DNA of 64,000 nucleotides from an uncultured Chloroflexia bacterium (GCA_963811305.1 CAWEQU010000003.1:130688-194687); one strand, 5' to 3'. Counted from the stretch's first letter, positions 6,219 through 39,367 are shown. The notes: a model not told the origin generated them from the letters alone. A program made the numbers and translations.

Positions 6219-6279
6219 GGACGATAGACGATAGACGATAGACGATAGACGATAACTTTGAACCTTGAACTTTGAACCC
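6219..6279. repeat. Word arrays: (GACGATA)x5 then (TTGAACC)x3
   Basis: Direct reading ggacgatagacgatagacgatagacgatagacgataactttgaaccttgaactttgaaccc, in the divergent promoter region between sufB and the GT1 gene. Confidence 0.85.
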
Positions 6280-8754: not shown

Positions 8755-8770
8755 ACTTTGAACTTTGAAC
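8722..8770. repeat. (TTGAACC/TCGAACC)n word array
   Basis: cttgaacctcgaacctcgaactttgaaccttgaactttgaactttgaac. Confidence 0.85.
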
Positions 8771-11600: not shown

Positions 11601-13750
11601 TCATATACTAAACAGCGATCTTACGGTCCTTGCTGCACGCTCAGGCTGTAGTTCTGCTTTCAGCAGCGTATGGGGCGTTTCGCCCGCGACGATAAGCACC
11701 GCAGTATCGTAGGTCGTGCCGAGGCCATCTATCGTGAAGCTTACGTCGCCTGAGGGGCCGACCTCTACGGGCTGTATCTCGAAGCCATTCCTATTGAGCT
11801 TTATGGCGGCAAGGTAAATTGCTGGGGGAGGGAGTTGTGGATGCGGGCGAAGCCCGTACTCTGCCAGCCGGTGTCGCTCTCGGCGTCATCGACGTAGCCA
11901 AGCTCAGGGATCGAGATGTCGTCTACGGCGAACCCCTGCGCGTTGTAGCCGTCGTCGGTGATGTACTCGAAGCGGAGCATCACCTCTTTGCCCGCGTATT
12001 CGCCCAGGTCTATGCTTTCCTTTAGCCATCCGCCAGGGTCGGCACCTGATTGGTCCTTGCTCTTGCCCGTATAGCCGTTGCCCTGGTTGGTGCCGTTGGG
12101 GTTATCGGTAGTGGTGTACTCACCTTTGAGGCTGGCCCAGGTTGCGCCGCCATCCGTGGAAGCTTCTACGTAGGCGAAGTCGAAGGTCTTCTCGACGTCG
12201 AACCACGCGTAGAAGTCCAGGGTGGCCGCTTGCAGGTTCCGAAGGTCGAACGCCCGCGTCATGTTCATATTGCTCACGTCGCCCCGGTTGCTCCACCATA
12301 TAGAAGAGCCACTGTGCGCGGGTGGGTCTATCACTCGTGTTTCGGTTTTGCCCGTAAAGTGAACATTCAATGAATTGCCGCTGTCCGGCGCGCTCAACTC
12401 TATGTAGTCAGTCCCGAACTGCGACACCGTACCCCTGTAGTCCTTCGGGTAGCTGCCCACCCTAACGTGTGGCGATACGCTCACGTCGCGGTCGGGGTAA
12501 TCGAGGCCCTCTCTCGCCGCACTTTCCTGACCATCCAGGAGGTTTGCTACCGTCCATCGCTCAAACACGTCCTTGAACTGCTCCTGCTTGCCGAGGGCCT
12601 TTAGCGCATTGTCAATCGCATCGATGCCCGTGCCTGTGGACGATACGATGTCTTTAAGTATTTCTTTGCCGCCGTAGTGCGCTCGTATGTAATCAAGGAA
12701 GAGGAAGGCCGCGCCGTAATGGGGACCCGACTCATTGGGGGTGGCCTCCCAGGCGTTGAGTCTGTATATCGGTGTCGATCATGAAATCGAAGTCTACACC
12801 TACGTCCTCGTAGCCGTTGAGCGCGCTCGCCAGCACCGCCATTCCTTCGTTGAGCCATACGTCGTGATTGGCGTGCTCGTTCCAGTGGATCATATGCTGG
12901 TGCTCGTGGGCGAGGGTGCTTTCGACGCCGAACCAGCCGCTGCCGGTGTTGATATAGATCATCTCGCGCTCATTGCTGAACGGGTTGATAGCGCGGGTGT
13001 ACTCGTCCGCGGACGAGTAATATCCGCCGACATTCGGTATGTCGGCGAAAAGCACGGTGAGGCGAGGGTCGTTGTCCACGCCTGGCGACCACTCGGAGCC
13101 AAATAGCGAACGATTGTTGGGGTATATTTGCTCATCGAAGGCGAGCGCCGCATCCTCTAGCGCGGACCTGTCAATAGGTTTGCCGTCCTGAGCGTACCAG
13201 TAGGCGTGGTCGGTGACCCTCTGTATTGTGGCAGTGACTGTGTAATACCTGTGCTCGCTGATGTTGTTGACGTAGAAGGTATCGGTATGACCCTCCTGGT
13301 AATTACTGGGTGGGTTGCCTGTAGTGTGAGGGATGGGGGTTGTGCTCTTCAGCTTGAGTCTCTGGACGATGGAGTAAAGGTCGCGCTTGGGGACCTCGAT
13401 GCTATCCAAAAGCCGTAGCGTGGCATCCGCATCAGCAGAGACGGTGGCGTTTGGCGAAGGCGTAATGTCACCTGCCCCTACGCTGGGCGATGCTACAGGT
13501 GTAACGCTTGCCGTGCCGAGGCTAATGGCGGTAGGGACTGGCGTGCCCAGGCGAGTTGGCTGGGAGGTTACCTGCGCGATGACGGTGGGCGTGGCCGAAG
13601 GTCGTGGCGCCAACCTAACAGGTATGTTGATGCGATAACCAGCGCCGATACGCCAATTACGAGCGCAATGGTAAGAGCTATCAGCTTCGGTGTGCGGTCA
13701 GGGGGCTGTGGGGTATAGTTGCCGGTAGGTTGATATGGGGGAAGTGACAT
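11601..13750 (-). CDS. M6-family (immune inhibitor A-like) metalloprotease; reading frame interrupted by at least three apparent frameshifts at G/C homopolymers
   Basis: HEHQHMIHW zinc motif. Contiguous homology continues across frames: N-terminal signal/TM in ORF 13568-13750, catalytic part 12732-13613, then 11801-12770, then the C-terminus at 11601-11800. The junctions lie at ggggg/ccccc runs. Confidence 0.6.
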
Positions 13751-14263: not shown

Positions 14264-14351
14264 GGACGATAGACGATAGACGATAGACGATAGACGATGG
14301 ACGATGGACGATGGACGATGGACGATGGACGATGGACGATGGACGATAGAC
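14264..14351. repeat. (GACGATA)x4 plus (GGACGAT)x7 word array
   Basis: Direct reading. Confidence 0.9.
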
Positions 14352-14511
14352 CATGAAGTCAATAAAAGGATAGCATATTGTGGGGTGGGTGGCGAGTTCT
14401 AGCCGATAAATGAAAGAGGTGTTGGGCGCGCCCAACACCTCTTTCATATGTAGATACAGAGTGTAGGTACAGGAATTGGACTTTCGCTTACGGGTTTGCA
14501 CACGCCTGCTG

Positions 14512-16704
14512 TTAGCTTTTGTATGTTAGCAGCCTCATCCCGTTGAGGGTTACCAGGAGGGAGACGCCCATGTCGGCCAGGATCGCGCCCCATAAGGGGA
14601 GCATACCGAGGCTTGCGAGAATGAGGGCTATTACTTTCGTCGCCAGCGATACGCCTATATTGGCCTTGATGACGCCTAATGCCTTGCGTGAGAGGGTTAT
14701 CGCGTAGGGGAGGCGCGAGAGGTCGTCGCTCATCAGGGCGACCTCAGCGACTTCCAATGCGGCATCTGTGCCTGCGATGCCCATGGCGATGCCCACGTCG
14801 GCGGTGGCGAGTGCAGGCGCGTCGTTCACGCCGTCGCCTACCATTGCTATGGGGCCATGCTCCGCGGCGATGCGCCGGACTGCTTCTACCTTCTCGGCTG
14901 GGAGAAGCTCAGCGTGGCAGCTATCTACATTGAGCTGGCGTGCTATCGCCTCGGCTGTTCGGCGGTTGTCGCCTGTGAGCATGGCTATATGGCGGATACC
15001 TGATTGGCGTAGCTCCTCAATCGCGGCCTGGGCGTTGGACCTGGACCTGTCGGCGAGGGCTATTATTCCCTGCACGCCGTCAGTAGTGCCCACAAGCACT
15101 GCGGTATTTCCCTCTTCATTGAGAGCGTCGAGCGTGGAAGCTATGCCATTTAGCTCGATGTGATGGTCCCTGAAGAGGCGCGGGCTGCCTACATAGATTG
15201 TCTCGCCACCTATGTCGGCGCGCGCACCCAGGCCGGGCAGGGCGGTGAAGCCAGTTGCCTCTAGCGCAGATGGGTTCTTGTGAAGATCGCGCGCCGCGTG
15301 TACGACGGCTCTCGCCAGGGGGTGCTCTGAGCGGGATTCAGCCGCAGCAGCCATTGTGAGCAACCTATCCTCGTCGCCGTCAGCAGCGCGAACGGCGACT
15401 ACCTGCGGGCGACCCTCGGTGAGAGTGCCGGTCTTGTCGAAGGCGACGACGCGCACCTTGCCCAGCGCCTCCAACGCCTCCCCGCCCTTGATAAGGACGC
15501 CATGCCTGGTAGCGGCACCGATTGCGGAGACGATGCTGACGGGCGTCGAGATGACCAGCGCGCACGGGCACGCTACCACCAGCAGCACCAGCGCGCGGTA
15601 ACCCCACTCCGCGAAGGGCTGTGCTAACAAGAGCGGGGGTATCAGCGCCACGAGGGCCGCTCCCGCTATGACCAGGGGCGTGTAAATCGCTGAGAAGCGG
15701 TCCACGAACTGCTGGGAGGGTGCGCGGCGGGCCTGGGCCTCCTCGACCATGCCGATGATGCGGGCAAGGGTGGTATCACCGGCGGCGCTTGTGCTTCGCA
15801 TGGTAAGCACGCCAGGCCCATTGATGGTCCCGGCGAAGATTTGCGATCCAGGTTCTACGTCAACCGGCACGCTTTCGCCCGTTATGGGGGACTGGTCGAT
15901 TGAAGATATACCCTGCAAGACGATGCCATCGAGGGGAACACGTTCGCCCGGACCAACCAGCACGGTCTCTCCAGGCAGTACTTCCTCTACGGAGACGCGC
16001 ACCTCACGCATGATGGGTAAGCCTGAGCTATTGTCGACGCGGCGCACAAGCGCGGTGTCCGGGGAGAGGTCCATTAGCGCGCGTATCGCGCCGCGCGTCT
16101 TTTGGAGGGTATACGCTTGCAGGGTGCCGCCGAAGGCGAAGAGGAGGACTACCGTAGCGGCTTCGGCCCAGTCGCCAAGCGCAGCCGCGCCTATCGCCGC
16201 CACGGACATGAGCAAGTTCATATCGGCCCGCCCGACGCGCAACGCGAGCAGACCCGCTCTTGCGAAGCCCAGACCGCTTATCACGATTGCCACTGCGTAG
16301 AGGGAATTGACAAACCAGGGAGCGACTCCGAAGAGCGATAGGGCGAAAGCAGCCAGCGCGAATAAGGTTCCAACGCCTGTGGTCAACACCCGGCGTTCTC
16401 GCCGCCAGAAGGGGACTTCTATCAGATGAGCACGCGCCTGGAGTGGAGTAGCTCTATAGCCAGCCTCGTTTACCTTTCGCTCGATGGTTGTTTCGATGCT
16501 GTTGAGCTTGCCTTTTGTGGGAACGACGGATAGCCTTGCAGCGCCGAAGTTCACCCGTGCTGTTTCCACGCCGGGTAGCGCGCCCACCGCCTTCTCTATG
16601 GTGCGCGCGCAGTCCCCGCAGTCCATCCCTTCGATGGTGAACTCAAGGAGGGCATTCGATTTTGGATTTTGGATTTTGGATTTTGGATTTTCTGTGGTAA
16701 TCAT
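14512..16704 (-). CDS. Heavy-metal (Zn/Cd/Pb-type) translocating P1B-ATPase
   Basis: N-terminal HMA GMDCGDC, CPCALVISTP transmembrane motif (ZntA/CadA type), DKTGTLT phosphorylation site and GDGVNDAPAL. The first 16 codons (MITTENPKSKIQNPKS) are encoded by the TTTTGGA array. Confidence 0.85.
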   Translation of the reverse strand: MITTENPKSKIQNPKSNALLEFTIEGMDCGDCARTIEKAVGALPGVETARVNFGAARLSVVPTKGKLNSIETTIERKVNEAGYRATPLQARAHLIEVPFWRRERRVLTTGVGTLFALAAFALSLFGVAPWFVNSLYAVAIVISGLGFARAGLLALRVGRADMNLLMSVAAIGAAALGDWAEAATVVLLFAFGGTLQAYTLQKTRGAIRALMDLSPDTALVRRVDNSSGLPIMREVRVSVEEVLPGETVLVGPGERVPLDGIVLQGISSIDQSPITGESVPVDVEPGSQIFAGTINGPGVLTMRSTSAAGDTTLARIIGMVEEAQARRAPSQQFVDRFSAIYTPLVIAGAALVALIPPLLLAQPFAEWGYRALVLLVVACPCALVISTPVSIVSAIGAATRHGVLIKGGEALEALGKVRVVAFDKTGTLTEGRPQVVAVRAADGDEDRLLTMAAAAESRSEHPLARAVVHAARDLHKNPSALEATGFTALPGLGARADIGGETIYVGSPRLFRDHHIELNGIASTLDALNEEGNTAVLVGTTDGVQGIIALADRSRSNAQAAIEELRQSGIRHIAMLTGDNRRTAEAIARQLNVDSCHAELLPAEKVEAVRRIAAEHGPIAMVGDGVNDAPALATADVGIAMGIAGTDAALEVAEVALMSDDLSRLPYAITLSRKALGVIKANIGVSLATKVIALILASLGMLPLWGAILADMGVSLLVTLNGMRLLTYKS

Positions 16705-16732
16705 TTGTGGGTTCTTATTCTTTGCGTTTAGG

Positions 16733-17140
16733 CTAGTAGTCCCGGACGTGCTCCAAGCAGACTGCTAACAGGGTACGGATATGCTCGTCATCGAGAGAGT
16801 GGTAGATTACTTTGCCGTTGCGCCTGCTCCTGATGAGGTGAAGGTGACGTAAGACCCGCAGGTGCTGGGAGACTGCCAACTCGCTGATGCCAGCTATGGC
16901 TGCCAGGTCGCAGGTGCATAGCTCCTGGCTGAGGAGGCTGTAGACTATCTTGGCGCGGCTCGGGTCAGCGAGCGCCTGGAAGGTGGCAGCTAACGCATGG
17001 TATTCGTGCTGCGGTAAGAGCGCCTCACGCCCGGCGCGCACGCTTTCAGGGTGGACGCAACGCGTCTCGCATACGTCGCTTGCAGGTTTAGTGCGAAGCA
17101 AGGTTATTGCCGCTTTCTTCTTTTCCTTTACAATAGCCAT
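16733..17140 (-). CDS. ArsR/SmtB-family metalloregulator (CadC/CmtR-like)
   Basis: ELCTCDLAAIAGISELAVSQHLRVL is the HTH with the metal-binding Cys motif. Lies directly upstream of the P-type ATPase on the same strand. Confidence 0.75.
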   Translation of the reverse strand: MAIVKEKKKAAITLLRTKPASDVCETRCVHPESVRAGREALLPQHEYHALAATFQALADPSRAKIVYSLLSQELCTCDLAAIAGISELAVSQHLRVLRHLHLIRSRRNGKVIYHSLDDEHIRTLLAVCLEHVRDY

Positions 17141-17257
17141 TTTTGCTCCTGTTCGATTTAGCAATCACTTAATCGTTAATGATATTATATGATATTTTGT
17201 GTGGGATAGCAACCTTTTTAGTGTGGATAAGTGCGTAGGATCGAGGTAAAGGGTAAA

Positions 17258-17320: not shown

Positions 17321-17747
17321 GTTGGGCGCAGGGAAATGATGGTTGGATGTGCAAAAACCATTGACACCACCCTATGGCGGGTGTAACATCCGCACACCTC
17401 AAGGCCGGGCACGTAACTCGGCGGCGTACGGAAATATGAAGCGAAGCAAGGGTTATTGGAAAGTGGAAAGGGTTGCCCCTATGCGTACCGACTGGATATT
17501 GTTTACATTGCTGGGTCTGCTATGGCTAGGGGCCGGGGGCATACACCTGAGATTGCCACGCCGTCAAAAGGACCAATCGCCGGAGATAGAGGAGTGAAAC
17601 GTGACGACGGACGATAGACGATAGACGATAGACGATAGACGATAATGTCTGATGCGTGATACGTAAGTCTATTGCCTAGCGCATAAACTCTTATAAAATC
17701 TTAGCGTTCTTGGTTATCTTTGCGTCTTGGCGTTTAATAATCACGCA

Positions 17748-19041
17748 TCAATCCTTCACGCGCCTGACTTTTGCGCCTAGAGTTTGCAGGCGGGTTTCGA
17801 TGGCTTCGTAGCCCCGGTCTATCTGGCGGACGTTGGAGATTGTGCTTGTGCCCTGGGCACACAGAGCGGCTTGCAAGAGGGCCATGCCTGCTCGTATGTC
17901 GGGGCTGGTGATCTCGTCGGCGCGCAGCTTCACTTTTCCCACTACTACCGCACGGTGCGGGTCGCACAGTACGATGCGTGCGCCCATGCTTATCAAGCTG
18001 TCCACGAAGAAGAGGCGGCTCTCGAACATCTTTTCGAATATGAGCACGGTGCCCTCGGACTGGGTAGCCGTAACGAGGGCGATACTCATCAGGTCGCTGG
18101 GGAAGGCGGGCCAGATGCCGTCGTCTATCTTCGGCACGGCGTCATGCACATCGTACTCTACCTTGAGGTCCTGCCCGCCAGGCACCACTATATCCTCACC
18201 ATCCACGTCTACGCGCACGCCCAGCTTCTTGAAGATATACCGCACCATGCGGAGATGCTCCGGCACGGCCTTGCGGATGCGTAATTCCCCGCCCGTTGCC
18301 GCCGCGAGACCTATGAAGCTTCCCACCTCGATGTGGTCCGACATGATGGTGTGCTCGCCACCATGTAGACCCCCGGTTGTGCCCTCGATGGTAAGGGTGT
18401 TGGTGCCGATGCCGCTTATGCGCGCACCGAGGCAGTTGAGCATATGGCAGAGGTCTTGCACATGAGGCTCGGAGGCGGCGTTGCCGACGATAGTTGTGCC
18501 ATCGGCGCAGACCGCCGCGAGGATGGCCTGCTCGGTGCCGGTCACGCTTGCCTCGTCGAGGAAGATGTCGGCTCCACGCAGGCGCTCTGCGCTCATTTCG
18601 TAGCGGTCATCTTTTACGCTGACCGTAGCTCCCAGCGCCTCTAAAGCCAGCTTGTGCGTGTCTATGCGCCTGCGGCCAATGCTGTCGCCTCCAGGTTGTC
18701 CGACTATAGCGTGTCCTCTGCGCGCCAGGAGCGGCCCGGCCATCAGGAGCGATCCACGCACTTTCGATCCGAGGTCCTGGTCGGGGTGGCTGTCTATACC
18801 GGAAGAGCGCAAGGTGACAACGTGCTCTGTTGCCAGTTGCGAAGTCCTCTACCTCTACGCCCATCTTCCTCAACAGCCTCAAGAGGACGCGAATGTCCTC
18901 GATGTTGGGCACATTGCGCAAGGTAACGGGCGCGTCGGTGAGAAGGCAGGCTGCCAGCATCGGCTGGGCCGAGTTCTTATTTCCGGCAGGGGTTATCTCC
19001 CCGTGTAATGGGCGTCCGCCTTCGACTATTAGCTTTTCCAT
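17748..19041 (-). CDS. murA: UDP-N-acetylglucosamine 1-carboxyvinyltransferase MurA; apparent 1-nt frameshift near 18830 (probably a sequence error, as the gene is essential)
   Basis: N-terminus [31 protein letters not shown] is the MurA start. The rest (…[35 protein letters not shown]…) continues in an adjacent frame. Confidence 0.75.
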
Positions 19042-19059
19042 TGAGCTCCTGTGTAGTTC

Positions 19060-19137
19060 GGACGAAAGATGAAGGACGATAGACGATAGACGATAGACGA
19101 TAGACGATAGACGACGGACGACGGACGACGGACGATT
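19060..19137. repeat. (GACGATA)n plus (GACGGAC)n word array upstream of murA
   Basis: Direct reading. Confidence 0.9.
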
Positions 19138-19178
19138 GATAATGAGTACTGCTTCTGCCTTCTGCCTTCTGTCTTCTA

Positions 19179-22100
19179 TTACCTCGTCGCTGTCAAGGTC
19201 AGGCTGTAATAGAGCGGTTGGCCTGGGGTTGGGGCTTTCAGTCTGAGCCAGTTAGTGCCTGCGTGCAATTCGCTGCCGGAGATGATAAGGGAGACCGTGC
19301 TTCCGTTGCTACCATCTGACGAAACCTGCACGGGGCGGTCATTCAGGGTGAGGGTAGGCAAGCCCTTCAACGCCTTTTCGCTCGACTGGGCTGCGTACCG
19401 TGACAGGGACCACATCGCGTCTGAGGTAGCGCCGTAGCCAGCCCAACCGATGCCCTGCCTGGACTCCATCAGAAGCCGGACATAGGTGGGGGCTGTGCTC
19501 GCGTAGGCTGAGGGCTCTCTTACTTGGTAAACAGGCTCCGCCTGGGTGGCAGCCTTGTCCGCTACAATGAGCGCATAGAGGACGGGCGCGGCGGCTTCGG
19601 CCGTAATCTTCATGCGGTCATCGAGCAGCCTGCCAACCAGCACGAGGCCATCCTGGGTGCTCCCCGACTGCATGAGCGCCAGGGCTAACCATGCCTGCCC
19701 TGCATAAGATAGACCTGCTCCTGGGGAGGCGTATGCTATATAGGGGCGAGCCAACTCAGGTTGGAGCACTCCATAAGAAGATAGTGCGTAGAGGCCATAG
19801 GCGCGTTTGTCTAGAGCCTCATCGTCCCTTACTGGGCGGGCTAGCTCCGCGCCGAGATAGGCAAGCCCGCGCTCGATTACAGCTACATCTACATGGGGAT
19901 ACGGGTCCGATTCGCGGTCTCGTTCTGGGGAGGTGAGGCTGTAGTGCCTCAGCGCTAGTAGAATATGTGCCGTGCCGGTAATGCTGCCGAGTGGCGCTTC
20001 CGCAACGGCGTCTTCGGCGCTCCAACTGCCGTCGCTGTTCTGAGCTGAATATATTTGCTCCAGGAGGCTCGCTACCTCTTCAGCTGTTGGAGAGAGGTTA
20101 TCGGGTATCTGCGCTCCTGCCTGAGTATAAGCCCAGGCGACTGAAGCAGAAGAACTCAGGCGCGCCGCCGATGCCATAGCTCTCTCATGCTTGGATGGCG
20201 AATCGCTTGCGATGTTGGTGGCTATGCTTGCGAGCGCGGGCAAGAGCGAGCTAGAGGCGCGCACCTGTAGCTCTACGCCGCCAGCAGATAGACCTGAGGG
20301 GACGAGTACGCCTACAGAACGCTCCCCGGACATCACCCCAGATACATAGGTAGTGTTCGTGCGCGCGCTCTTAGAGGCCACAATAGGGAGGCTCCACGCT
20401 CCCGCGCCATATTGTCCGGGTGCGAAGGAGAACGTTGCCAGGTGAGCGCCGGGCCTGGAGGCTTGCAAGCGCCAATCTACTCTCCGGCTACCACCGGGCG
20501 CGAGAGATAGGGTTTGCGAATCGCTGCTCAAGGTTCTAACTGCATCTTCGCCGTCCATGCGTATGACGACTGATGCAGACTGGTCGGTTGGGTTATGGAC
20601 TACTATGGAGACTGTTTGGGGTTCCATAGATTGAGCCTGAATGGTAGATGGCGTCTGGATCGAGGGGCCGGGCAGGACTCTCAGCACCGACCACGACTGC
20701 ACGTACCCTCCGTCTCCTGTGACCGCTTCCGATAGCATATACCAGAGGCCCGGCGTCCCCGGGGCTTGCAGGGTGGCAGATACGGTGCCGCTGGCTGAGA
20801 GGGTCACGTCTGGCTCCCAGCCACGCGATTCTCCCATGGCATCGCCTATATCGCTCCCGGCAACCCGCCTGAACCAGATGGACGCCACACCTGCTACACC
20901 CTGCCTTTCCCTGTCTGTGAGGCTTAGAAGGGTCACTACAGGTGCATTGGGCAAAGCGGGGAGCGGGTCGGACATTTGTAGCTCGATCCCACCAACTACC
21001 TGAGGCATGAGCGCCATCTCACGCGAGCCTGCTACTCCTGCCCTGAGAAGTCTCAAGCGCCCTCCTGCGTAGTGGCGAGGGAGGGGCACGGTGAGGTCGC
21101 CTGCGCTTGATAGGTCGAGAGACCAGGTTTGTTGCTCACCCGCCGGGGGGTAGGCCGTTAGCAACACGTCGCCATCGACGCCGCTACCGTTCAGCGTCAC
21201 GATACGCACGTTGATGCTGCCATCCTTCGCGGGGCGAGCCACAGCAGCCAGGTTGAGCTCAGGGGAGACCAACTGTCTCATACCCGCTCGCGCCGCCCCA
21301 AACGATGTAAGGTCGAGGTACTGGCTGTCGCTCCCTGCCATGCCATTGAGCGTTGCTGTGGTGGCAAGATAGAGGCTGGGGTCGTTATATGACGCTATCC
21401 ATGACGGTAAGGTCATAACGACTGTGGCCTTGCCCTCGCTATTTGTGGTAGCGGTGACCGGACTTGACACCCAGGAGTCGCCCATTATTCCGAGGGTCAT
21501 AGTGAGGGCAGAGCCTGGTGCAGCGCCTCCATTTGGCCCCAAAATGCTCACAGTACGCGTGATTACGCGGGGGGTCGCGTCCTCCGGCGCTCCGGGCACT
21601 ATATAGACGCCCAGGGTGTCGCTCTTTGGTTGCTTCACGTAGAGTGGGAAGCGACGCTCCTCTCCACCGGCACGGGCCAGCAGCGTGTATTCTCCAGGGC
21701 GTAAATCAGTGGGTAAGTTGAACAGGCCGCTTGCGCCTCCTGCATCGTCAGGTTTCAGGGTGAGAGACCTTAGCACATTTCCTGGAGGGGTGAGCAAAGA
21801 GACTTCTACCTCTCGCTCTGTGAGGGGGGTGTTCGGAATGGCGTCCGTGGTGGGGTGCAACAGTACGCGAAAGTTGACTGTCTGGCCGGGATAATATTCC
21901 GCGCGGTCGGTGCGTAGCGTGGCCGCGAGGGTGTCCCTGGATTGCGTCTTCGGGGCTGTTCCGGGAGACAGCGTCATGGCGGCGAGATGACCCGCACCGT
22001 CGCGGGCGATAGCCAGAGTAGCTTTCTCCATCAATATGTCGGGGGACCAGAGGCCGCGCTCATCCGTAAGCCCCTTCTGGAGGAGTGAGCCTTCAGGCGA

Positions 22101-23765
22101 ATAAAGAGAGATTTCGCTGCCTGCCCATGCGTGGCCGTGCTCGCCAGTGGCCCAGAAGGAGGGTCCACCTCTGTCGTCGATAGCTACCAGGTTATGGTCA
22201 GCAACCGCCAGCAATTGCCAGTCGGTCACAATCCCCTCTTCTGCCAGGGTAGAAGCTACGAGCAGATACGTGCCTGCCGGAAGCTCGTCCGGCACGGGGG
22301 CCGCGCCTTCTGATTTGCCCGCATCTGGCAGGCTCGAACTGAACGTCTGGACCGGCGCTAATCCAGCGGGTAGCCCGCCGGGGAGGGAGACCGGCCAGGG
22401 CCTCTTCTGCGCGCCCAGGGCAGATATGTACTCGGCGGGGAGGTTGTACAGAGAGAACGTCACGATAGGGCCGGAATTCGCATCTTCATCAGGGATGTAA
22501 CCCTGCGCCGGGACTTCACGCGCTTCATCTGCACTTACTTCATACTTTACGCTTCCTGACTGGCTCATGGGAACTACGCTGACACGCCCATCCAACAAGC
22601 GAACCCTCGAAGTTGGGAGCGTGCTGGTGTAGGCGAACTCATGGGGCTGCCCCAGGGTATCGCCACCCTGGGTGCGTGAGGTAGCTGCTGTGCGTAGATA
22701 GACCGTACCTTCGGGCATCGGTACGTCGGGCGACACAATGACTTTGCGCCCATCTGGATCCCAGTAAAGGGTTGCGGGCAAAGCCTCGCTTGACCCGCTC
22801 GTGTGGAGCGACACAGCCGTTTGTTCTCTGTTCATGGGGGCTTCAAAATTGAGGCTGAGTGTGGCTGTGGGGGATAGAGTAGCGCCTGGATTGGTGTCCG
22901 GCATGACGCCATATGGCTCTTTGGTGCGGAAGGACCAGGTGATGGGCTGCCGGAGGGGCGTGCCGGTGAGGGAGCGCGCAGTGCTGCTGAGTAGCAGGGT
23001 GTAAGTGATGCCCCTGAGCAGGCCCGGCTCGTGCGGGGAGAAGAGCAACTCGTTGTCGGCTGCCCACTGGAACGCCCCGGCTGCGGGTGGGTCTATGCCC
23101 CAGGCGTTTTCGACCGAGGCCCGGTCCATAGGCTGGTCGAAGCGGATGCTCATGGGCGCGCCGAGGGGAACGTCGTGAGCATCGCCGGTGGGCGAGAGGC
23201 GCACCGGATTGGGTATGGCTACCGGACCGCCAACCCCGTATTTGCCCGATGATATGGCCGCTAGAGGAGTGGAGTTGACGGCAATGGGGGCTTCTTCGCC
23301 CGGCACGAGGAAGCCAAGCTCTTTGTAACCCCCAATGGGAGGGAGTATGTTCAGCCAGTAGGCCAGGCTGATCATGGCAAAGATGGAGGTGGCTGCCGCA
23401 AATGCGACGCGCTTCGGAGAAGGATCGAACCGCAAGAGCAGACCTGCCGCAAGCAAGCTCCACTTTCTAAATGCGGAGTGCGGAGTGCGGAGTGCGGAAT
23501 TGGGACGGGTTGTGGCTTGGATTGATCTGGTAGGCGCTGGCTCGTCGTGCTTGACGGAGCTTAGGACGGCGTTTCGCACGCGGTCAGAGGGGCGAGGCTC
23601 GGAGGCTGCTTCCTTGAGAAGCACGTCTGTCTGGCGTGCGCGGGCCAGCCATGCGGCGCACTCGTGGCAGCCCTCTACGTGGTCGAGCAACTCGCGGCGC
23701 TGGCGGGGCGTGACCTCGCCATCCATGTAGCGCGATATTAGCTGCCGGTAGCGCGCGCAGGTCAC
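19179..23765 (-). CDS. Giant membrane anti-sigma factor (1528 aa): N-terminal zf-HC2 anti-sigma domain, TM, tandem SbsA-type Ig-like domains, MG-like repeats and a C-terminal alpha-2-macroglobulin TED-like region
   Basis: CARYRQLISRYMDGEV…HVEGCHECAAWL is a zf-HC2 anti-sigma motif. GTG start overlaps the sigma gene stop. The C-terminal LEQIYSAQNSDGSWS…TAHILLAL resembles an A2M thiol-ester domain, but no CxEQ thioester motif is evident. The GCGGAGT x3 array is in-frame in the cytoplasmic linker. Confidence 0.55.
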   Translation of the reverse strand: MTCARYRQLISRYMDGEVTPRQRRELLDHVEGCHECAAWLARARQTDVLLKEAASEPRPSDRVRNAVLSSVKHDEPAPTRSIQATTRPNSALRTPHSAFRKWSLLAAGLLLRFDPSPKRVAFAAATSIFAMISLAYWLNILPPIGGYKELGFLVPGEEAPIAVNSTPLAAISSGKYGVGGPVAIPNPVRLSPTGDAHDVPLGAPMSIRFDQPMDRASVENAWGIDPPAAGAFQWAADNELLFSPHEPGLLRGITYTLLLSSTARSLTGTPLRQPITWSFRTKEPYGVMPDTNPGATLSPTATLSLNFEAPMNREQTAVSLHTSGSSEALPATLYWDPDGRKVIVSPDVPMPEGTVYLRTAATSRTQGGDTLGQPHEFAYTSTLPTSRVRLLDGRVSVVPMSQSGSVKYEVSADEAREVPAQGYIPDEDANSGPIVTFSLYNLPAEYISALGAQKRPWPVSLPGGLPAGLAPVQTFSSSLPDAGKSEGAAPVPDELPAGTYLLVASTLAEEGIVTDWQLLAVADHNLVAIDDRGGPSFWATGEHGHAWAGSEISLYSPEGSLLQKGLTDERGLWSPDILMEKATLAIARDGAGHLAAMTLSPGTAPKTQSRDTLAATLRTDRAEYYPGQTVNFRVLLHPTTDAIPNTPLTEREVEVSLLTPPGNVLRSLTLKPDDAGGASGLFNLPTDLRPGEYTLLARAGGEERRFPLYVKQPKSDTLGVYIVPGAPEDATPRVITRTVSILGPNGGAAPGSALTMTLGIMGDSWVSSPVTATTNSEGKATVVMTLPSWIASYNDPSLYLATTATLNGMAGSDSQYLDLTSFGAARAGMRQLVSPELNLAAVARPAKDGSINVRIVTLNGSGVDGDVLLTAYPPAGEQQTWSLDLSSAGDLTVPLPRHYAGGRLRLLRAGVAGSREMALMPQVVGGIELQMSDPLPALPNAPVVTLLSLTDRERQGVAGVASIWFRRVAGSDIGDAMGESRGWEPDVTLSASGTVSATLQAPGTPGLWYMLSEAVTGDGGYVQSWSVLRVLPGPSIQTPSTIQAQSMEPQTVSIVVHNPTDQSASVVIRMDGEDAVRTLSSDSQTLSLAPGGSRRVDWRLQASRPGAHLATFSFAPGQYGAGAWSLPIVASKSARTNTTYVSGVMSGERSVGVLVPSGLSAGGVELQVRASSSLLPALASIATNIASDSPSKHERAMASAARLSSSASVAWAYTQAGAQIPDNLSPTAEEVASLLEQIYSAQNSDGSWSAEDAVAEAPLGSITGTAHILLALRHYSLTSPERDRESDPYPHVDVAVIERGLAYLGAELARPVRDDEALDKRAYGLYALSSYGVLQPELARPYIAYASPGAGLSYAGQAWLALALMQSGSTQDGLVLVGRLLDDRMKITAEAAAPVLYALIVADKAATQAEPVYQVREPSAYASTAPTYVRLLMESRQGIGWAGYGATSDAMWSLSRYAAQSSEKALKGLPTLTLNDRPVQVSSDGSNGSTVSLIISGSELHAGTNWLRLKAPTPGQPLYYSLTLTATR

Positions 23766-24350
23766 TTAGAAGCCCTCCCCTTTGTCGCCCAGGCCATCCG
23801 CGCTGAGAGGCTCGGTGTTGTGGGAGAAGTCGCGGTATCCCTGCATGAAGGCTTCGCGGGCGCGGGCAAGGCGGCTAAAGACGGTGCCCTTGGGTATCTT
23901 GAGGATTTCGGCTATCTCTTCGCAAGAGAAGCCCTCTACGGAGCGCAATACGAGGCATACGGCCAGCGCGGGGGGCATCTCGCGTAAAGTGCGGCGCACT
24001 ATTTGCGACTCGATAACCTGGGGCGCGAAGTCGTCGGAGGTGAACTCGGCTGTCTTCTCACTCTCTTCGAGGATGGGCATCCAGGTGATCAGCTTGCGGC
24101 GGCGGAGTATGTCGAAGCAGGCGTTGGAGGCTATGCGGTATAGCCATGCGCTGACGTTGGAGTCCCTGGCGATGCTTCTTATGCCCTGGAATGCCTTGAG
24201 GAAGGTCTCCTGGGTAATGTCGTCGGCTAGCTCCTGGTTTCCGATGAGGCGGTAGACATAGCGATATATCTGCGGGCTGAAACGCTCGTAGATGAGCACA
24301 AAAGCTTCTTCGTCGCCATTACGCGCCCGTTCGATTACTGCTATATCCAT
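23766..24350 (-). CDS. ECF (sigma-70 family, group IV) RNA polymerase sigma factor
   Basis: Region 2 (YRYVYRLIGNQELADDITQETFLKAF) and region 4 (EGFSCEEIAEILKIPKGTVFSRLARAR) signatures. Confidence 0.8.
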   Translation of the reverse strand: MDIAVIERARNGDEEAFVLIYERFSPQIYRYVYRLIGNQELADDITQETFLKAFQGIRSIARDSNVSAWLYRIASNACFDILRRRKLITWMPILEESEKTAEFTSDDFAPQVIESQIVRRTLREMPPALAVCLVLRSVEGFSCEEIAEILKIPKGTVFSRLARAREAFMQGYRDFSHNTEPLSADGLGDKGEGF

Positions 24351-24496
24351 GGAACGTGATACGTGATTAAGGTGGTAGTTATCCCTCTAGTTTAAGAGGA
24401 TGAGGGGAAGATACCCTATGATTATAGGAGGGATGCTTGCTGGTCGTCAAGATATTCTCTTGCCTGAGAGTGGCGAAAAATGAAGAGAAATATTTG

Positions 24497-24575
24497 TAGG
24501 GGCGTGATTTATCGCGCCCTGGAGTAAGAGGATGCTGTACCAACCAGGGCGCGATAAATCACGCCCCTACATCTG
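24497..24575. repeat. ~27-bp-stem perfect hairpin in a divergent promoter region
   Basis: tgtaggggcgtgatttatcgcgccctgg…ccagggcgcgataaatcacgcccctaca. Confidence 0.8.
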
Positions 24576-26493: not shown

Positions 26494-28319
26494 GTGAAAA
26501 TCCAAAATCCAAAATCTAAAATCCAAAATCGGAAGAGCTGGTGGTATATCTGGCGGCTAGCCCGCTTCCGCTTTCCTCTTTACCTGCTGAGCGGCCTGCT
26601 GGCAAGCTCGCTATTTTACTTCTTTCCACTGATCCCCGGTCTCTTTGTGCGTGAGATATTCGACAACCTCACCGGCAATGCCCCCGCCGAGAGCAGCCTC
26701 TGGACCTACGCCGCACTGATCGCCGCCGTAGGCCCCGTCCAGATGCTATCCAATCTAGGTGCTAATGTGGTCGAGGTGACCATGCAACTGACCACGGCGG
26801 CGCTGCTGCGCCGCAATATGTTCGAGCGTATACTACAGCGTCCAGGAGCGAAGGCGCTGCCCGCGTCGACGGGAGAGGCGATAAGTCGCTTCCGCAATGA
26901 CGTTGAGGAGATTTACGGCTTCCTGACCTGGACGCTCGATCCCCTGGGCCAGGCGATAGTCATGATCCTCGCTCTCAGCATACTGATCAGCATCAACCCA
27001 CTCATCACGGTGGCGGTTTTCGTGCCGCTCGTGGCGGTGCTGGTCATTGTAAACACTGCCAGTAAGCGCATCCAGAAGTATCGCAAAGCCAACCAGGAAG
27101 CGATTGGTGAGGTGACAAGTCTACTGGGCGAGGTGTATGGGGCAGTACTGGCGATAAAGGTGGCGGGCGCTGAGGAGAACGTAGCAGCGCATTTTCGGGG
27201 AGTGAACGAGGCGCGTCGAAAAGCCGCGCTCAACGACGTGCTGCTCACAGAGCTGCTAGGCTCGATCTCCTTCAACGTCGCCAACCTGGGCACCGGGTTG
27301 ATGCTACTGGTCGCGGCGCAGGCCATGCACAGCGGCAGCTTTACCGTGGGCGATTTCGCACTCTTCGTATCGTACCTGGGCTGGCTGACCGTCGTGATCA
27401 GCATGTTCGGGAACTATCTGACCAAGTATCGCCAGGTGCAGATATCGTTGCAAAGGGCTATCGAGCTGTTACAGGGCGCGCCTTCCGAGATGCTTGTCAG
27501 ATATAACCCCGTCCACATGCGCGGCCCTCTGCCTGAGCCTACCCACATCCAAAGGACCGAGGCCGACACCCTGAAACGGCTCGAAGCCACCGGCCTGGTA
27601 TTTCATTACCCAGGCTCCTCTAATGGGATTGAGGCTGCCAGCTTTAGCCTTGAGCGAGGATCATTTACCGTCATCACGGGGCGCATCGGTGCGGGCAAGA
27701 CAACCTTGCTGCGAGTGCTGCTGGGGTTGTTGCCGCGAGAGGGAGGTGCGGTCCGGTGGAACGGTGAGGAGGTGGACGACCCGGCGAGCTTCTTCGTGCC
27801 GCCACGCTGTGCCTACACGCCGCAGACGCCGCGCCTCTTCAGCGACTACGTTGCGAGAGAACATTCTGCTCGGGCTACCCCGGTGAGGAACCGGCCATGA
27901 CCACTGCCCTGCACGCCGCCGTGCTCGAACGGGACATCGGCGAGATGGAGCAGGGGCTTGACACCCTGGTTGGGCCACGGGGGGTCAAGCTGTCGGGTGG
28001 GCAGATGCAGCGCACCGCGGCGGCGCGCATGTTCGTGCGCGAGGCCGAATTATTGGTAGTGGACGATCTTTCGAGCGCGCTCGACGTGGAGACCGAAAGC
28101 GCTCTCTGGGCACGCCTGGCCCGGCAGCGAAACGTCACCACCCTCGCCGTCTCCAACCGGCGCTCGGCTTTGCGCCGTGCCGATCAGATCATTGTCCTCA
28201 AAGAGGGGCAGGTTGAGGACAGGGGCACGCTGCCCGAGCTGCTGGAGAGATGCGAGGAGATGCATCGCCTATGGCACGGCCAGCTTGAGAGACGCGAGGT
28301 GGAGGAAGCACGCGCATAA
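26494..28319 (+). CDS. ABC exporter, fused permease/ATPase (half-transporter 2); two closely spaced apparent frameshifts at 27845-27890
   Basis: Walker A GRIGAGKTT. After …PRLFSD the expected TLRENILLGLP and GEEPAMTTALH… segments are in the other two frames (C4 run), then LSGGQMQRTAAARMF. The N-terminus MKIQNPKSKIQNRKS is encoded by the TCCAAAA array. Confidence 0.7.
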
Positions 28320-39293: not shown

Positions 39294-39367
39294 GTGGACG
39301 ATGGACGATGGACGATAGACGATGGACGATGGACGATGGACGGTGAAGTGAAACGTGAAACGTGAGG
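39294..39367. repeat. (GGACGAT)n plus (GAAACGT)n word array upstream of the NTase-like gene
   Basis: Direct reading. Confidence 0.9.

What the first reader, a model, noticed from the sequence alone, without database searches (positions are those of the whole stretch)
19179..24350. ECF sigma factor paired with a 1528-aa anti-sigma protein whose extracytoplasmic part carries Ig-like domains and an alpha-2-macroglobulin-like TED region
The zf-HC2 anti-sigma domain is translationally coupled to the sigma gene (TAAGTG overlap). Past a single TM it is fused to tandem SbsA-type Ig domains and a C-terminal alpha/alpha-toroid resembling the A2M thiol-ester domain. A2M-like proteins trap proteases. Fusing one to an anti-sigma factor suggests a sensor that couples protease encounter or cleavage to ECF-dependent transcription. 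That would be an unusual signalling logic.
Basis: inference. Interest (0 to 1): 0.6.

Follow-up and report, generated by a model that had tools for sequence, protein, structure and literature searches.

The report
Anti-sigma factor with macroglobulin-derived sensor
A stress-type sigma factor gene is followed by a membrane anti-sigma factor whose outside part is a stripped-down copy of a bacterial protease-trap protein (alpha-2-macroglobulin), and the pair always sits in front of the cell-wall gene murA, an undescribed but conserved arrangement in uncultured Chloroflexia.

Summary
On the minus strand, an ECF sigma gene (23766-24350) is followed directly by one intact 1528-aa ORF (19179-23765). 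That ORF has a zf-HC2 anti-sigma domain, one transmembrane helix, two Big_5 Ig domains and a near-complete alpha-2-macroglobulin (A2M) body, including a 12-helix TED. A2M homology is solid: profile-profile probability is 100% (E 2e-83), TED alone scores 99.4%, and Foldseek's best hits are E. coli and Salmonella A2M (E 1e-42).

The trap machinery is gone. The ectodomain has no cysteine, so no thioester. The thioester motif position reads KHERAMA. The bait loop is 13 aa against about 61 aa in free A2Ms, and MG10 is absent. All three fused subfamilies lack CxEQ, and bait length is not conserved.

It is conserved in every Chloroflexia locus with enough flank, down to 52% sigma identity, behind a sigma-A-type promoter.

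My best reading is an envelope or cell-wall stress module using an exapted A2M scaffold as sensor. I infer that a conserved, disordered juxtamembrane linker is cut to release sigma. I class this as a new variant of known kinds, of moderate interest.

The parts
24421..24450 (-). Sigma-A-type promoter of the operon (TTGACG, 18 nt, TATAAT)
   Evidence: The consensus scan gives 11 of 12 matches. TTGAC-N(14-19)-TATA is present upstream of sigma in 25 of 25 non-redundant orthologous loci and is the only conserved two-part motif there. No GAAC...CGT ECF-like motif was found.
23766..24350 (-). ECF (group 4) sigma-70 factor, 194 aa
   Evidence: Pfam finds Sigma70_r2 and Sigma70_r4_2. TIGR02937 scores above its cutoff, and no equivalog model (SigM, SigW, SigY and others) reaches its cutoff. 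Orthologues at 64-93% identity precede every fused A2M gene, and 255 relatives occur in metagenomes.
23541..23765 (-). Cytoplasmic class I anti-sigma domain (zf-HC2/ZAS type), residues 1-75
   Evidence: The zf-HC2 hit scores above its cutoff. C3, H29, C33 and C36 are invariant in 36 sequences. AF2 predicts four helices at 3-14, 20-32, 34-54 and 61-72. There are weak hits to RsiW (5wuq_C) and RsrA.
23340..23408 (-). Single transmembrane helix, residues 120-142, N-in/C-out
   Evidence: This is the only 19-residue window with Kyte-Doolittle hydropathy above 1.6. The flanks carry a net charge of +3 on the N-terminal side and -2 on the C-terminal side. AF2 predicts a helix at 117-137.
23217..23339 (-). 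Extracytoplasmic juxtamembrane linker, residues 143-183: sequence-conserved but predicted disordered; candidate site-1 cleavage or recognition segment (inferred)
   Evidence: pLDDT is about 40. Mean top-residue frequency is 0.59 and identity is 48%, as high as in the folded MG domains. G151 is invariant and F152 is at least 90% conserved. A (K/R)(L/F)GF motif is shared by the short and long subfamilies.
22608..23216 (-). Two Big_5 (SbsA-type) Ig-like domains, residues 184-386
   Evidence: Pfam Big_5 scores 1.4e-13 over two stretches. These domains align to the third and fourth Big_5 of free Chloroflexi A2Ms. pLDDT is above 90.
21186..22595 (-). Macroglobulin (MG) domain array, residues 391-860 (MG1-like, bMG3, MG2, shortened bMG5- and bMG6-like)
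   Evidence: Pfam finds MG2 at 1.3e-12 and a weak bMG3 hit. The domain map comes from the hhalign mapping. AF2 predicts beta-sandwich domains.
20868..21119 (-). Shortened bait-region-domain (BRD)-like segment, residues 883-966
   Evidence: It spans 84 aa against 149 aa in the template A2M_BRD. On its own, its hhalign probability is only 47%.
20829..20867 (-). Vestigial bait loop, residues 967-979 (RVAGSDIGDAMGE)
   Evidence: It has 13 aligned residues where free A2Ms have about 61, including a GGGGGG stretch. It is the most variable ectodomain segment (top-residue frequency 0.34) and has low pLDDT at 973-978.
20556..20828 (-). A2M (MG7-like) domain, residues 980-1070
   Evidence: 91 of 91 columns align to the Pfam A2M domain of P0061. 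The long subfamily hits PF00207 directly.
20232..20555 (-). CUB N-terminal half and linker into the TED, residues 1071-1178 (assignment by position)
   Evidence: It aligns to template residues 1361-1478, with 105 columns aligned. AF2 predicts beta strands.
19398..20231 (-). Thioester-domain (TED) homologue without thioester, residues 1179-1456 (alpha/alpha toroid)
   Evidence: Taken alone, it gives hhalign probability 99.4% and E 1e-21 against the TED_complement region of free A2Ms. AF2 predicts 12 helices. The Q..DG.W motif is conserved.
20172..20192 (-). Position equivalent to the thioester motif (template PYECTEQ aligns to KHERAMA: Cys to Arg1195, Gln to Ala1198)
   Evidence: hhalign and MAFFT agree on this alignment and the translation was checked. 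The ectodomain has no Cys.
19182..19397 (-). C-terminal beta segment (CUB C-terminal half), residues 1457-1528; the protein ends where MG10 would begin
   Evidence: It aligns to template residues 1742-1815. The template's bMG10 (1827-1960) has no counterpart.
19042..19178 (-). Spacer between the anti-sigma gene and murA, filled with heptamer tandem repeats; no terminator or promoter detected
   Evidence: TRF finds a GACGATA array with 8.9 copies. No terminator-like site lies on the minus strand here. No conserved motif occurs across loci. In three orthologous loci the spacer is only TAAAATG.
17748..19041 (-). murA (UDP-N-acetylglucosamine 1-carboxyvinyltransferase), third gene of the conserved cassette; frameshifted in this window by a 1-nt insertion near 18843
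   Evidence: The L003 orthologue matches TIGR01072 murA at 459 bits (cutoff 392.7). A single extra T relative to L003 causes the shift. murA is present downstream in all 25 non-redundant loci with enough flank, and in L078.

Best explanation
This is a three-gene operon, ECF sigma then anti-sigma then murA, transcribed from a sigma-A-type promoter.

The anti-sigma factor is a single-pass membrane protein. Its cytoplasmic zinc-finger (ZAS-type, class I) domain holds the sigma factor. Its roughly 1380-aa outside part descends from the lipoprotein-anchored alpha-2-macroglobulins of Chloroflexi, but it has lost the parts that make a protease trap: the thioester, the bait and, in this subfamily, MG10. 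The macroglobulin body has therefore been exapted as a large, rigid sensor or gate module standing in the cell envelope.

The mechanism I think most likely is inferred, not shown. A disturbance of the envelope or cell wall changes the state or accessibility of this ectodomain. The conserved but disordered juxtamembrane linker (residues 143-183) is then cut by a dedicated site-1 protease. A site-2 protease cuts within the membrane, and the sigma factor is freed to switch on envelope or cell-wall genes. The invariable linkage to murA, the first committed step of peptidoglycan synthesis, ties the module to wall homeostasis.

What is shown: the gene order, the domain identities, the losses and the conservation. 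What is inferred: sigma binding, the trigger, regulated proteolysis and the regulon.
For: Identity of the pair:
- Sigma70_r2 and r4_2, zf-HC2, invariant C3/H29/C33/C36 and a four-helix N-terminus.
- The anti-sigma start codon abuts the sigma stop codon.
- Sigma lies upstream in 28 of 28 non-redundant loci with 5' flank, and in L078.

A2M descent:
- hhalign of the family against free Chloroflexi A2Ms gives probability 100% and E 2e-83 over residues 182-1527.
- TED alone gives 99.4%.
- Foldseek's best hits are ECAM 5a42 (1e-42) and Salmonella A2M 4u48 (4e-42).
- Sister subfamilies carry Pfam A2M, A2M_BRD and bMG10.
- Free A2Ms start with a signal peptide followed by Cys, as lipoproteins do. A canonical A2M lies next to the operon in L079.

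Loss of the trap:
- No CxEQ in any fused member.
- No Cys outside the zinc finger.
- Bait of 13 aa against 61 aa, and not conserved among subfamilies.
- No MG10.

Linker as the regulated site:
- It is disordered (pLDDT about 40) yet as conserved as the folded domains, with a GF motif shared across subfamilies. This is the opposite of a hypervariable bait.

Cell-wall link:
- murA (TIGR01072) follows in every locus with enough flank, in all three subfamilies, down to 52% sigma and 37% anti-sigma-domain identity. Other flanking genes are not conserved across subfamilies.
- The spacer is only TAAAATG in three loci, and no terminator or promoter lies between the genes.

Precedent from the literature: Type I A2M genes pair with the peptidoglycan synthase gene pbpC (PMC5764988).
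Against: - No site-1 or site-2 protease, target promoter or regulon was identified.
- No ECF-type promoter was found upstream of sigma or murA. murA may therefore simply be co-transcribed constitutively and not be sigma-dependent.
- Within the short subfamily, unrelated downstream genes (ArsR, P-type ATPase) are also syntenic, so part of the murA linkage could be plain synteny among relatives.
- The ligand or signal of the ectodomain is unknown.
- The vestigial bait loop is still flexible and variable, so it could still be a cleavage site.
- All genomes are uncultured MAGs and there are no expression data.
Confidence: 0.45

Rival explanations
1. Protease tripwire. Foreign proteases that reach the membrane cut the macroglobulin ectodomain. 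The cut, or the conformational change it triggers, leads to degradation of the anti-sigma factor and an ECF response. Protease attack itself is the signal.
For: - The ectodomain is a true A2M homologue, and the model resembles native (uncleaved) A2M forms more than activated ones: TMq 0.40-0.43 against 0.25-0.27.
- Thioester-less Type II A2M (MagD) still traps a protease after bait cleavage (PMC5764988).
- The bait-equivalent loop is the most variable and a low-confidence segment.
- Some long-subfamily members keep a 30-35-aa Pro/Ala-rich bait.
- The A2M-with-wall-synthesis pairing echoes the proposed yfhM-pbpC defence-and-repair logic (PMC5764988).
Against: - The bait is reduced to 4-8 variable residues in the whole short subfamily and is absent in several long-subfamily members (P0055, P0057, P0104). 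A bait is therefore not a conserved requirement of the cassette.
- There is no thioester and no MG10.
- A cut at residue ~970 would leave an ~830-aa stub outside the membrane. By analogy with known site-2 proteases, such a stub is not a substrate without further trimming (established knowledge of RseP and RasP, not tested here).
Confidence: 0.2
2. Non-proteolytic receptor. The macroglobulin scaffold or TED binds a partner or ligand, such as a peptidoglycan or S-layer component or a wall-synthesis enzyme. It signals across the membrane by conformational change or sequestration, without regulated proteolysis. Alternatively, it mainly positions the sigma/anti-sigma pair at sites of wall synthesis.
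For: - The TED toroid, CUB and MG domains are retained under purifying selection despite loss of trap features (39-51% identity per domain).
- The Big_5 domain resembles the Ig-like stalk domains of mycobacterial L,D-transpeptidases.
- murA linkage is conserved.
- MagD works in a multiprotein membrane complex (PMC5764988).
Against: - No partner gene is conserved beside the cassette other than murA, which is cytoplasmic.
- The single-pass membrane anti-sigma factors characterised so far (RsiW, RsiV, RseA) are released by proteolysis (PMC8999054 abstract for the general scheme; own knowledge for the named cases).
- No ligand-binding motif was identified.
Confidence: 0.15
3. Cytoplasmic redox switch. 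The H-x3-C-x2-C zinc site of the anti-sigma domain senses thiol oxidation, as in RsrA, and releases sigma. The outside macroglobulin part is an independent structural or protective surface module that merely uses the anti-sigma factor as its membrane anchor.
For: C3, H29, C33 and C36 are invariant. There is a weak match to the RsrA model TIGR03988.
Against: - The match to RsrA is far below cutoff (21.9 against 62.5 bits).
- The ZAS motif is also present in anti-sigma factors that are not redox sensors, such as RsiW (own knowledge).
- A 1380-aa ectodomain co-inherited with sigma in three subfamilies argues that it is the sensor rather than a passenger.
Confidence: 0.08

Closest known systems
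Type I bacterial alpha-2-macroglobulin (E. coli ECAM/YfhM, Salmonella Sa-A2M; PDB 5a42, 4u48)
   Same: - These are the best structural matches (Foldseek E 1e-42 and 4e-42).
- The domain order is the same: MG array, BRD, A2M/MG7, CUB and TED.
- Both are anchored on the outer face of the cytoplasmic membrane.
- Both are genetically linked to a peptidoglycan-synthesis gene: pbpC there (PMC5764988), murA here.
   Different: - The fused protein has no CxEQ thioester, a 13-aa vestige in place of the bait, and no MG10.
- It is anchored by a transmembrane helix joined to a cytoplasmic anti-sigma domain, not by a lipid.
- It is encoded behind an ECF sigma gene.
- Two Big_5 domains precede the MG array.
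Type II bacterial alpha-2-macroglobulin (P. aeruginosa MagD, E. coli YfaS)
   Same: Both lack the thioester. Both are associated with the inner membrane (PMC5764988).
   Different: - MagD keeps a functional bait and traps a protease non-covalently.
- MagD is encoded in the six-gene mag operon and is held by the membrane protein MagB (PMC5764988).
- Here the bait is vestigial, no mag-type neighbours are present, and the protein is itself the membrane anchor and an anti-sigma factor.
Free Chloroflexi A2Ms (about 1900-2050 aa, Big_5 x4 plus a full A2M, many with CTEQ; e.g. P0061)
   Same: These are the direct sequence relatives (hhalign 100%, 23% identity over 1273 columns). They share the Big_5 motif FDQPMDRxSVE. 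One such gene lies beside the operon in L079.
   Different: They have a lipoprotein-type signal peptide in place of the anti-sigma domain and TM helix. They keep a roughly 60-aa bait with a Gly run, the YPYECTEQ motif and bMG10. They have no sigma or murA neighbours.
B. subtilis sigma-W/RsiW and sigma-V/RsiV (single-pass anti-sigma factors removed by regulated intramembrane proteolysis)
   Same: - An ECF sigma gene is followed by a single-pass anti-sigma gene.
- RsiW has the same zf-HC2 N-terminal domain (weak hit to 5wuq_C).
- RsiV shows that an anti-sigma ectodomain can itself be the receptor for an envelope-attacking enzyme, lysozyme, and so trigger site-1 cleavage (PMC6066255).
- The outputs of both systems are envelope defences.
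   Different: Their ectodomains are small (under about 200 aa) and unrelated to A2M. No site-1 or site-2 protease or inducing signal is known here. No autoregulatory ECF promoter was found.

Membership tests
ECF (group 4) sigma-70 factors | Only sigma regions 2 and 4, about 200 aa or fewer | tested here: met
   The protein is 194 aa. Sigma70_r2 covers 20-86 and Sigma70_r4_2 covers 116-167. TIGR02937 scores 86.3 bits against a cutoff of 42.9.
ECF (group 4) sigma-70 factors | Assignment to a named ECF group or equivalog (SigM, SigW, SigE and others) | tested here: not met
   All NCBIfam equivalog models fall below their cutoffs. The best is SigM PRK09643 at 114 bits against 190. ECF-Hub group models were not available.
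ECF (group 4) sigma-70 factors | Autoregulatory ECF-type promoter (AAC-type -35, CGT-type -10) upstream of its own operon. This is typical of the family, not obligatory. | tested here: not met
   Only TTGAC-N17/18-TATAAT is conserved (25 of 25 loci). There is no GAAC-N15-18-CGT motif in 28 of 29 upstream regions.
Class I anti-sigma factors (ASDI, zf-HC2/ZAS) | N-terminal zf-HC2 domain with the H-x3-C-x2-C motif, helical bundle | tested here: met
   PF13490 scores 35.4 bits against a cutoff of 22.2. The motif is HVEGCHEC at residue 29. C3, H29, C33 and C36 are invariant. AF2 predicts four helices.
Class I anti-sigma factors (ASDI, zf-HC2/ZAS) | Encoded next to and co-transcribed with its cognate ECF sigma | tested here: met
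   The spacer is 0 nt here. Sigma lies upstream in 28 of 28 loci and in L078.
Class I anti-sigma factors (ASDI, zf-HC2/ZAS) | Binds and inhibits the sigma factor; binds zinc | not testable with these tools
   This needs biochemistry or a complex prediction. Only single-chain predictions of window sequences were allowed.
Alpha-2-macroglobulin / thioester-containing protein superfamily | Array of macroglobulin (MG) beta-sandwich domains in the canonical order | tested here: met
   MG2 scores 48.3 bits against a cutoff of 32.8. hhalign gives 100% over 1273 columns. Foldseek's top 50 hits are all A2M, C3/C5, TEP or CD109.
Alpha-2-macroglobulin / thioester-containing protein superfamily | TED alpha/alpha-toroid domain inserted in CUB | tested here: met
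   The TED segment alone gives hhalign 99.4% and E 1e-21 against the TED_complement region. AF2 predicts 12 helices flanked by beta segments. The Pfam TED model itself gives no hit.
Alpha-2-macroglobulin / thioester-containing protein superfamily | CxEQ thioester | tested here: not met
   There is no C.EQ in the query or in P0001-P0057, P0101-P0104, P0289, P0303 and P0316. The site aligns to KHERAMA. The ectodomain has zero Cys.
Alpha-2-macroglobulin / thioester-containing protein superfamily | Exposed bait region of about 30-60 aa between BRD and MG7 | tested here: not met
   13 residues align against 61 in the template. Members of the short subfamily have 4-8 variable residues.
Alpha-2-macroglobulin / thioester-containing protein superfamily | C-terminal MG10/receptor-binding-type domain | tested here: not met
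   The protein ends at the column before the template's bMG10, and no ORF for it lies downstream. The domain is present in the long and third subfamilies.
Alpha-2-macroglobulin / thioester-containing protein superfamily | Protease entrapment with conformational change | not testable with these tools
   This needs purified ectodomain, proteases, and gel-shift or SAXS measurements.
Type II bacterial A2M (MagD/YfaS system) | Thioester-less A2M encoded in the six-gene mag/yfaS operon with MagA, B, C, E and F partners | tested here: not met
   The thioester-less criterion is met. The neighbours, however, are the ECF sigma and murA, then ArsR and a P-type ATPase or others. mag-type genes were not searched for by profile.
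Type I bacterial A2M (ECAM/YfhM) | Thioester-containing lipoprotein encoded with pbpC | tested here: not met
   There is no thioester and no lipoprotein signal, since the anti-sigma domain and TM helix take its place. The downstream gene is murA, not pbpC.
Anti-sigma factors controlled by regulated intramembrane proteolysis | Single-pass N-in topology with an extracytoplasmic sensor | tested here: met
   There is one hydrophobic segment at 120-142, and the positive charge is on the N-terminal side.
Anti-sigma factors controlled by regulated intramembrane proteolysis | Site-1 cleavage near the membrane followed by site-2 (S2P) cleavage | not tested
   No protease genes were sought. Only a candidate linker (143-183, conserved and disordered) was identified.

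The most novel reading that the evidence does not exclude
The macroglobulin fold is used here as a signalling receptor. The spring-loaded A2M body would convert an extracellular event directly into release of a transcription factor, driving peptidoglycan synthesis. That event could be proteolytic attack or loss of cell-wall contact. It would be the first case of an A2M-family protein acting as a transmembrane signal transducer rather than as a trap or opsonin. It would also be a bacterial 'attack sensed, wall repaired' circuit analogous to the hypothesised A2M-PBP1c pair, but wired through an ECF sigma.
Probability: 0.25. Interest if true: 0.75.

Novelty: new variant of a known kind. Interest (0 to 1): 0.55.

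Why it matters
Bacterial alpha-2-macroglobulins are known only as periplasmic protease traps, and their physiological role is still debated. ECF anti-sigma factors are known to carry many kinds of sensor domain, but I found no paper describing a macroglobulin one. Four full-text searches returned nothing relevant, and it is not mentioned in the 2021 ECF reclassification main text.

This cassette shows that a lineage of soil Chloroflexia recruited an entire A2M body, stripped of thioester and bait, as the outside half of an anti-sigma factor. The lineage has kept it welded to an ECF sigma and to murA across at least three divergent subfamilies.

It gives a second, independent genetic link between A2M-like proteins and peptidoglycan synthesis, after yfhM-pbpC. 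It also offers a tractable question: what can a trap-dead macroglobulin sense? Practically, these genes are annotated only as 'Ig-like domain-containing protein', and that annotation could be improved.

Tried and rejected
1. I first took LLEQ (residues 1232-1235, SLLEQIYSAQNSDGSW) for a degenerate thioester site. I rejected this. Both hhalign and MAFFT place the real site at 1192-1198, and LLEQ...DGSW is the Q..DGGW helix-hairpin motif of the toroid.

2. Direct Pfam and NCBIfam hits for TED, A2M, BRD and MG10 in the query gave nothing. phmmer and profile searches against PDB sequences detect only the MG2 and Big_5 regions. The TED needed profile-profile and fold evidence.

3. I searched for an ECF-type promoter upstream of sigma and of murA in about 29 loci, by two-part motif enumeration and with GAAC-N15-18-CGT. 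Only the sigma-A-type promoter is conserved. The regulon could not be defined.

4. I considered whether the heptamer repeat array between the anti-sigma gene and murA is an operon-specific attenuator. I rejected this as specific, because the same kind of array fills many spacers across the window.

5. I considered whether the 27-nt inverted repeat upstream of the promoter is a dispersed element or a conserved operator. It is unique in the window and absent from all fetched loci.

7. The sigma homologue search returned only close orthologues of at least 74% identity. It therefore did not reveal the ancestral ECF group or its usual partner.

8. I treated murA synteny as strong functional evidence at first. 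I tempered this, because ArsR and the P-type ATPase are also syntenic within the short subfamily. Conservation of murA across the long and third subfamilies is what carries weight.

Full report
**1. What is in the sequence**

On the minus strand, ORF 23766-24350 (194 aa, ATG) and ORF 19179-23765 (1528 aa, GTG) follow each other with no spacer. The sigma stop codon TAA is immediately followed by GTG, so the two genes are adjacent and do not overlap.

The small protein is a standard ECF sigma factor. Pfam finds Sigma70_r2 and Sigma70_r4_2, and TIGR02937 scores above its cutoff. No named equivalog model reaches its cutoff.

The large protein gives these curated hits: zf-HC2 (residues 3-37), two Big_5 domains, MG2 (617-700) and a weak bMG3 hit. 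Nothing hits its last 800 residues.

It has a single hydrophobic segment at residues 120-142, with positive charge on the N-terminal side. It contains only three cysteines (C3, C33, C36), all in the zinc finger.

**2. The ectodomain is a near-complete alpha-2-macroglobulin**

A database search found about 52 full-length homologues of around 1500 aa (39-92% identity, all from Chloroflexia MAGs). It also found a sister group of 1742-1799 aa that has the same zf-HC2 N-terminus together with direct Pfam hits to bMG3, MG2, A2M_BRD, A2M and bMG10. Beyond these came the free A2Ms of Chloroflexi, about 2000 aa long, many with a TED_complement hit and a CTEQ motif.

The family profile aligns to the free-A2M profile with probability 100% and E 2e-83, covering query residues 182-1527 against template residues 258-1815.

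Transferring the template's Pfam domains gives this map for the query:

| Domain | Query residues | Note |
|---|---|---|
| Big_5 | 184-281 | |
| Big_5 | 286-386 | |
| MG1-like | 391-525 | |
| bMG3 | 526-606 | |
| MG2 | 615-699 | |
| bMG5-like | 724-792 | shortened |
| bMG6-like | 807-860 | shortened |
| BRD-like | 883-966 | 84 aa against 149 aa |
| Bait loop | 967-979 | 13 aa against 61 aa |
| A2M/MG7 | 980-1070 | |
| CUB N-terminal half | 1071-1178 | |
| TED | 1179-1456 | |
| CUB C-terminal half | 1457-1527 | |
| bMG10 | none | no counterpart |

The TED segment taken alone still gives 99.4% and E 1e-21 against the template's TED region.

An AlphaFold2 model of residues 331-1528 was built with a 42-sequence alignment (pLDDT 85, pTM 0.61). 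It shows a run of beta-sandwich domains, then 12 helices at 1174-1460, then four strands. Foldseek against the PDB returns E. coli ECAM (5a42, E 1e-42, TMq 0.43) and Salmonella A2M (4u48, E 4e-42) first. Only A2M, C3/C5, TEP and CD109 structures follow in the top 50. Native forms score higher TM than protease-activated forms. I give that last point little weight, because predictions tend to reproduce native states.

Neither is met.

**3. The trap machinery is missing**

In both hhalign and an independent MAFFT alignment, the free-A2M motif YPYECTEQ aligns to SKHERAMA in the query. The thioester Cys aligns to Arg1195 and the Gln to Ala1198. All fused proteins show xxxxAAARLS-type sequences at this position. 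No fused protein in any subfamily contains C.EQ.

The bait differs sharply between groups:
- Free A2Ms have about 60 residues between BRD and MG7, including a conserved Gly run.
- Long-subfamily members have anything from almost nothing (P0055, P0057, P0104) to about 35 Pro/Ala-rich residues.
- The short subfamily, including this gene, has 4-8 variable residues.

The remaining loop (967-979) is the most variable ectodomain segment and has low model confidence. A bait is therefore not a conserved feature of the fused family. This gene lacks all three hallmarks of the trap: thioester, bait and MG10.

**4. The N-terminal half**

A second model covers residues 1-420 (pLDDT 80). It gives a four-helix anti-sigma domain (3-72), a disordered cytoplasmic linker (73-96), an amphipathic helix (98-112) and the TM helix (117-137). 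A 35-40-residue extracytoplasmic linker (145-179) follows with pLDDT around 40, and then two confident Big_5 domains.

C3, H29, C33 and C36 are invariant.

The disordered outside linker is unexpectedly conserved. Its identity is 48% and its top-residue frequency 0.59, equal to the folded MG domains. G151 is invariant, F152 is nearly so, and a (K/R)(L/F)GF motif is shared with the long subfamily. A conserved yet disordered juxtamembrane segment behaves unlike a bait, which evolves fast. It behaves like a recognition or cleavage site for a dedicated partner.

Free Chloroflexi A2Ms begin with a signal peptide ending in Cys, as lipoproteins do and as ECAM does. The fusion therefore replaced a lipid anchor with an anti-sigma domain and a TM helix.

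**5. Genomic context**

A scan of one genome per species returned 33 loci encoding fused proteins, all from Chloroflexia or Chloroflexota MAGs.

tblastn with the window's proteins shows an ECF sigma (64-93% identical) immediately upstream in all 28 non-redundant loci that have 5' flank. It shows a PF00275 gene (70-95% identical) immediately downstream in all 25 with enough 3' flank. Free-A2M loci have neither neighbour.

The downstream gene is murA (TIGR01072, 459 bits against a cutoff of 392.7).

An exhaustive search with residues 1-185 revealed a third fused subfamily (P0303 and P0316, about 1600 aa). It has Pfam A2M_BRD, A2M and bMG10, and no CxEQ. Its locus again reads sigma (52% identity), then the fused A2M, then murA (61% identity).

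Other neighbours are not conserved across subfamilies. ArsR and a P-type ATPase are syntenic only within the short subfamily. In L079 a canonical 2068-aa A2M with a TED lies divergently beside the operon.

Upstream of sigma, the only conserved two-part motif is TTGAC-N17/18-TATAAT, found in 25 of 25 loci and located here at 24450-24421. No ECF-like motif was found there or in front of murA.

The spacer between the anti-sigma gene and murA is just TAAAATG in three loci. Elsewhere it is 60-630 nt of lineage-specific short repeats with a conserved AGGAG ribosome-binding site. No terminator was detected in the window's spacer.

The three genes therefore most likely form one operon driven by the housekeeping sigma.

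**6. Interpretation**

These points are shown:
- An ECF sigma and a ZAS-type single-pass anti-sigma factor form a pair.
- The anti-sigma sensor domain is an exapted macroglobulin without a trap.
- The pair is fixed in a cassette with murA in three divergent subfamilies.

These points are inferred. The ectodomain reports on the state of the envelope or wall. Activation goes through cleavage in the conserved disordered linker, followed by intramembrane proteolysis, as for RsiW, RsiV and RseA. The response concerns wall synthesis.

Two precedents inform this reading. RsiV shows that an anti-sigma ectodomain can itself be the receptor for a wall-attacking enzyme (PMC6066255). The Type I A2M-pbpC pairing is a precedent for linking A2M to peptidoglycan synthesis (PMC5764988).

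It is weakened by the non-conservation of the bait. The other rivals are a non-proteolytic receptor or scaffold role and a cytoplasmic redox switch.

**7. Novelty**

Full-text searches combining anti-sigma or ECF with macroglobulin or Chloroflexi returned nothing relevant. The 2021 ECF reclassification main text mentions neither macroglobulin nor murA. Source annotations read 'Ig-like domain-containing protein' or 'MG2 domain-containing protein'.

I rate this a new variant of known kinds. It is an ECF/anti-sigma pair with a new sensor domain, and a bacterial A2M with a new anchor and role. It is not categorically new.

**8. Caveats**

- All relatives are MAGs.
- No regulon, signal or protease was identified.
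- The window itself carries at least two frameshifted conserved genes, murA at about 18843 and an ABC transporter near 27890. Indel errors in the assembly are therefore likely.
- The 1528-aa ORF is nevertheless intact and matches its homologues end to end.

Noticed in passing
window 17748-19041 (minus), shift near 18843: murA is split into two frames by a single extra T relative to the 88%-identical orthologue in L003. The rest of the gene is intact. It is either an assembly indel or a very recent pseudogene.
   Followed up: yes
window 26494-28300 (plus), shift near 27880-27900: The second ABC-transporter gene stops inside its ATPase domain. The remainder, including LSGGQ at about 27990 and Walker B, continues in another frame. 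This is a second frameshift in a conserved gene, which suggests indel errors typical of long-read assemblies.
   Followed up: partly
window, many intergenic spacers (e.g. 158-184, 6220-6254, 8722-8770, 14264-14355, 17610-17644, 19060-19136, 39295-39342, 39962-39994, 53267-53297, 57619-57687): Tandem arrays of heptanucleotides fill many spacers, up to 13 copies, mostly GACGATA/GGACGAT but also CTTGAAC, TGAAACG, GATTTTG and others. Orthologous spacers in other Chloroflexia MAGs carry different heptamers, some forming long hairpins (GTGGTTA/TAACCAC in L010 and L014). This resembles the short tandemly repeated heptamers (STRR) of cyanobacteria. Their function is unknown.
   Followed up: partly
window 24496-24570: A perfect 27-nt inverted repeat (GTAGGGGCGTGATTTATCGCGCCCTGG, 21-nt loop) lies between the sigma-operon promoter and the divergent ABC-transporter gene. 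It is unique in the window and absent from all 79 fetched loci.
   Followed up: partly
window 11801-12568 (minus): A 255-aa ORF carries only an InhA-like MAM domain (immune inhibitor A metalloprotease family, E 1e-37). It may be a fragment of a larger secreted protease gene, possibly another frameshift. A secreted protease gene 7 kb from an A2M-derived sensor is curious, but it is not conserved in other loci.
   Followed up: no
L079 597-6803 (minus), next to the orthologous operon: In one long-subfamily genome, a canonical 2068-aa A2M lies divergently beside the sigma/anti-sigma/murA operon, separated by a small response-regulator gene. It has Big_5, MG2, BRD, A2M, TED_complement and bMG10. 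A neighbouring A2M could have been the source of the fusion by duplication, or this could be a functional pairing.
   Followed up: no
window 23217-23339 (residues 143-183 of the anti-sigma factor): Within the conserved disordered linker, the consensus T-P-L-x-A-x-S-S-G has small residues at -3/-1 and a Pro at -6, like a type I signal-peptidase site. It lies about 30 residues from the membrane. This is speculative and untested.
   Followed up: no
window 14512-17164 (minus): An ArsR-family regulator and an HMA-domain P-type ATPase (a heavy-metal efflux pair) lie downstream of murA. They are syntenic in most short-subfamily loci but not in the other subfamilies.
   Followed up: partly
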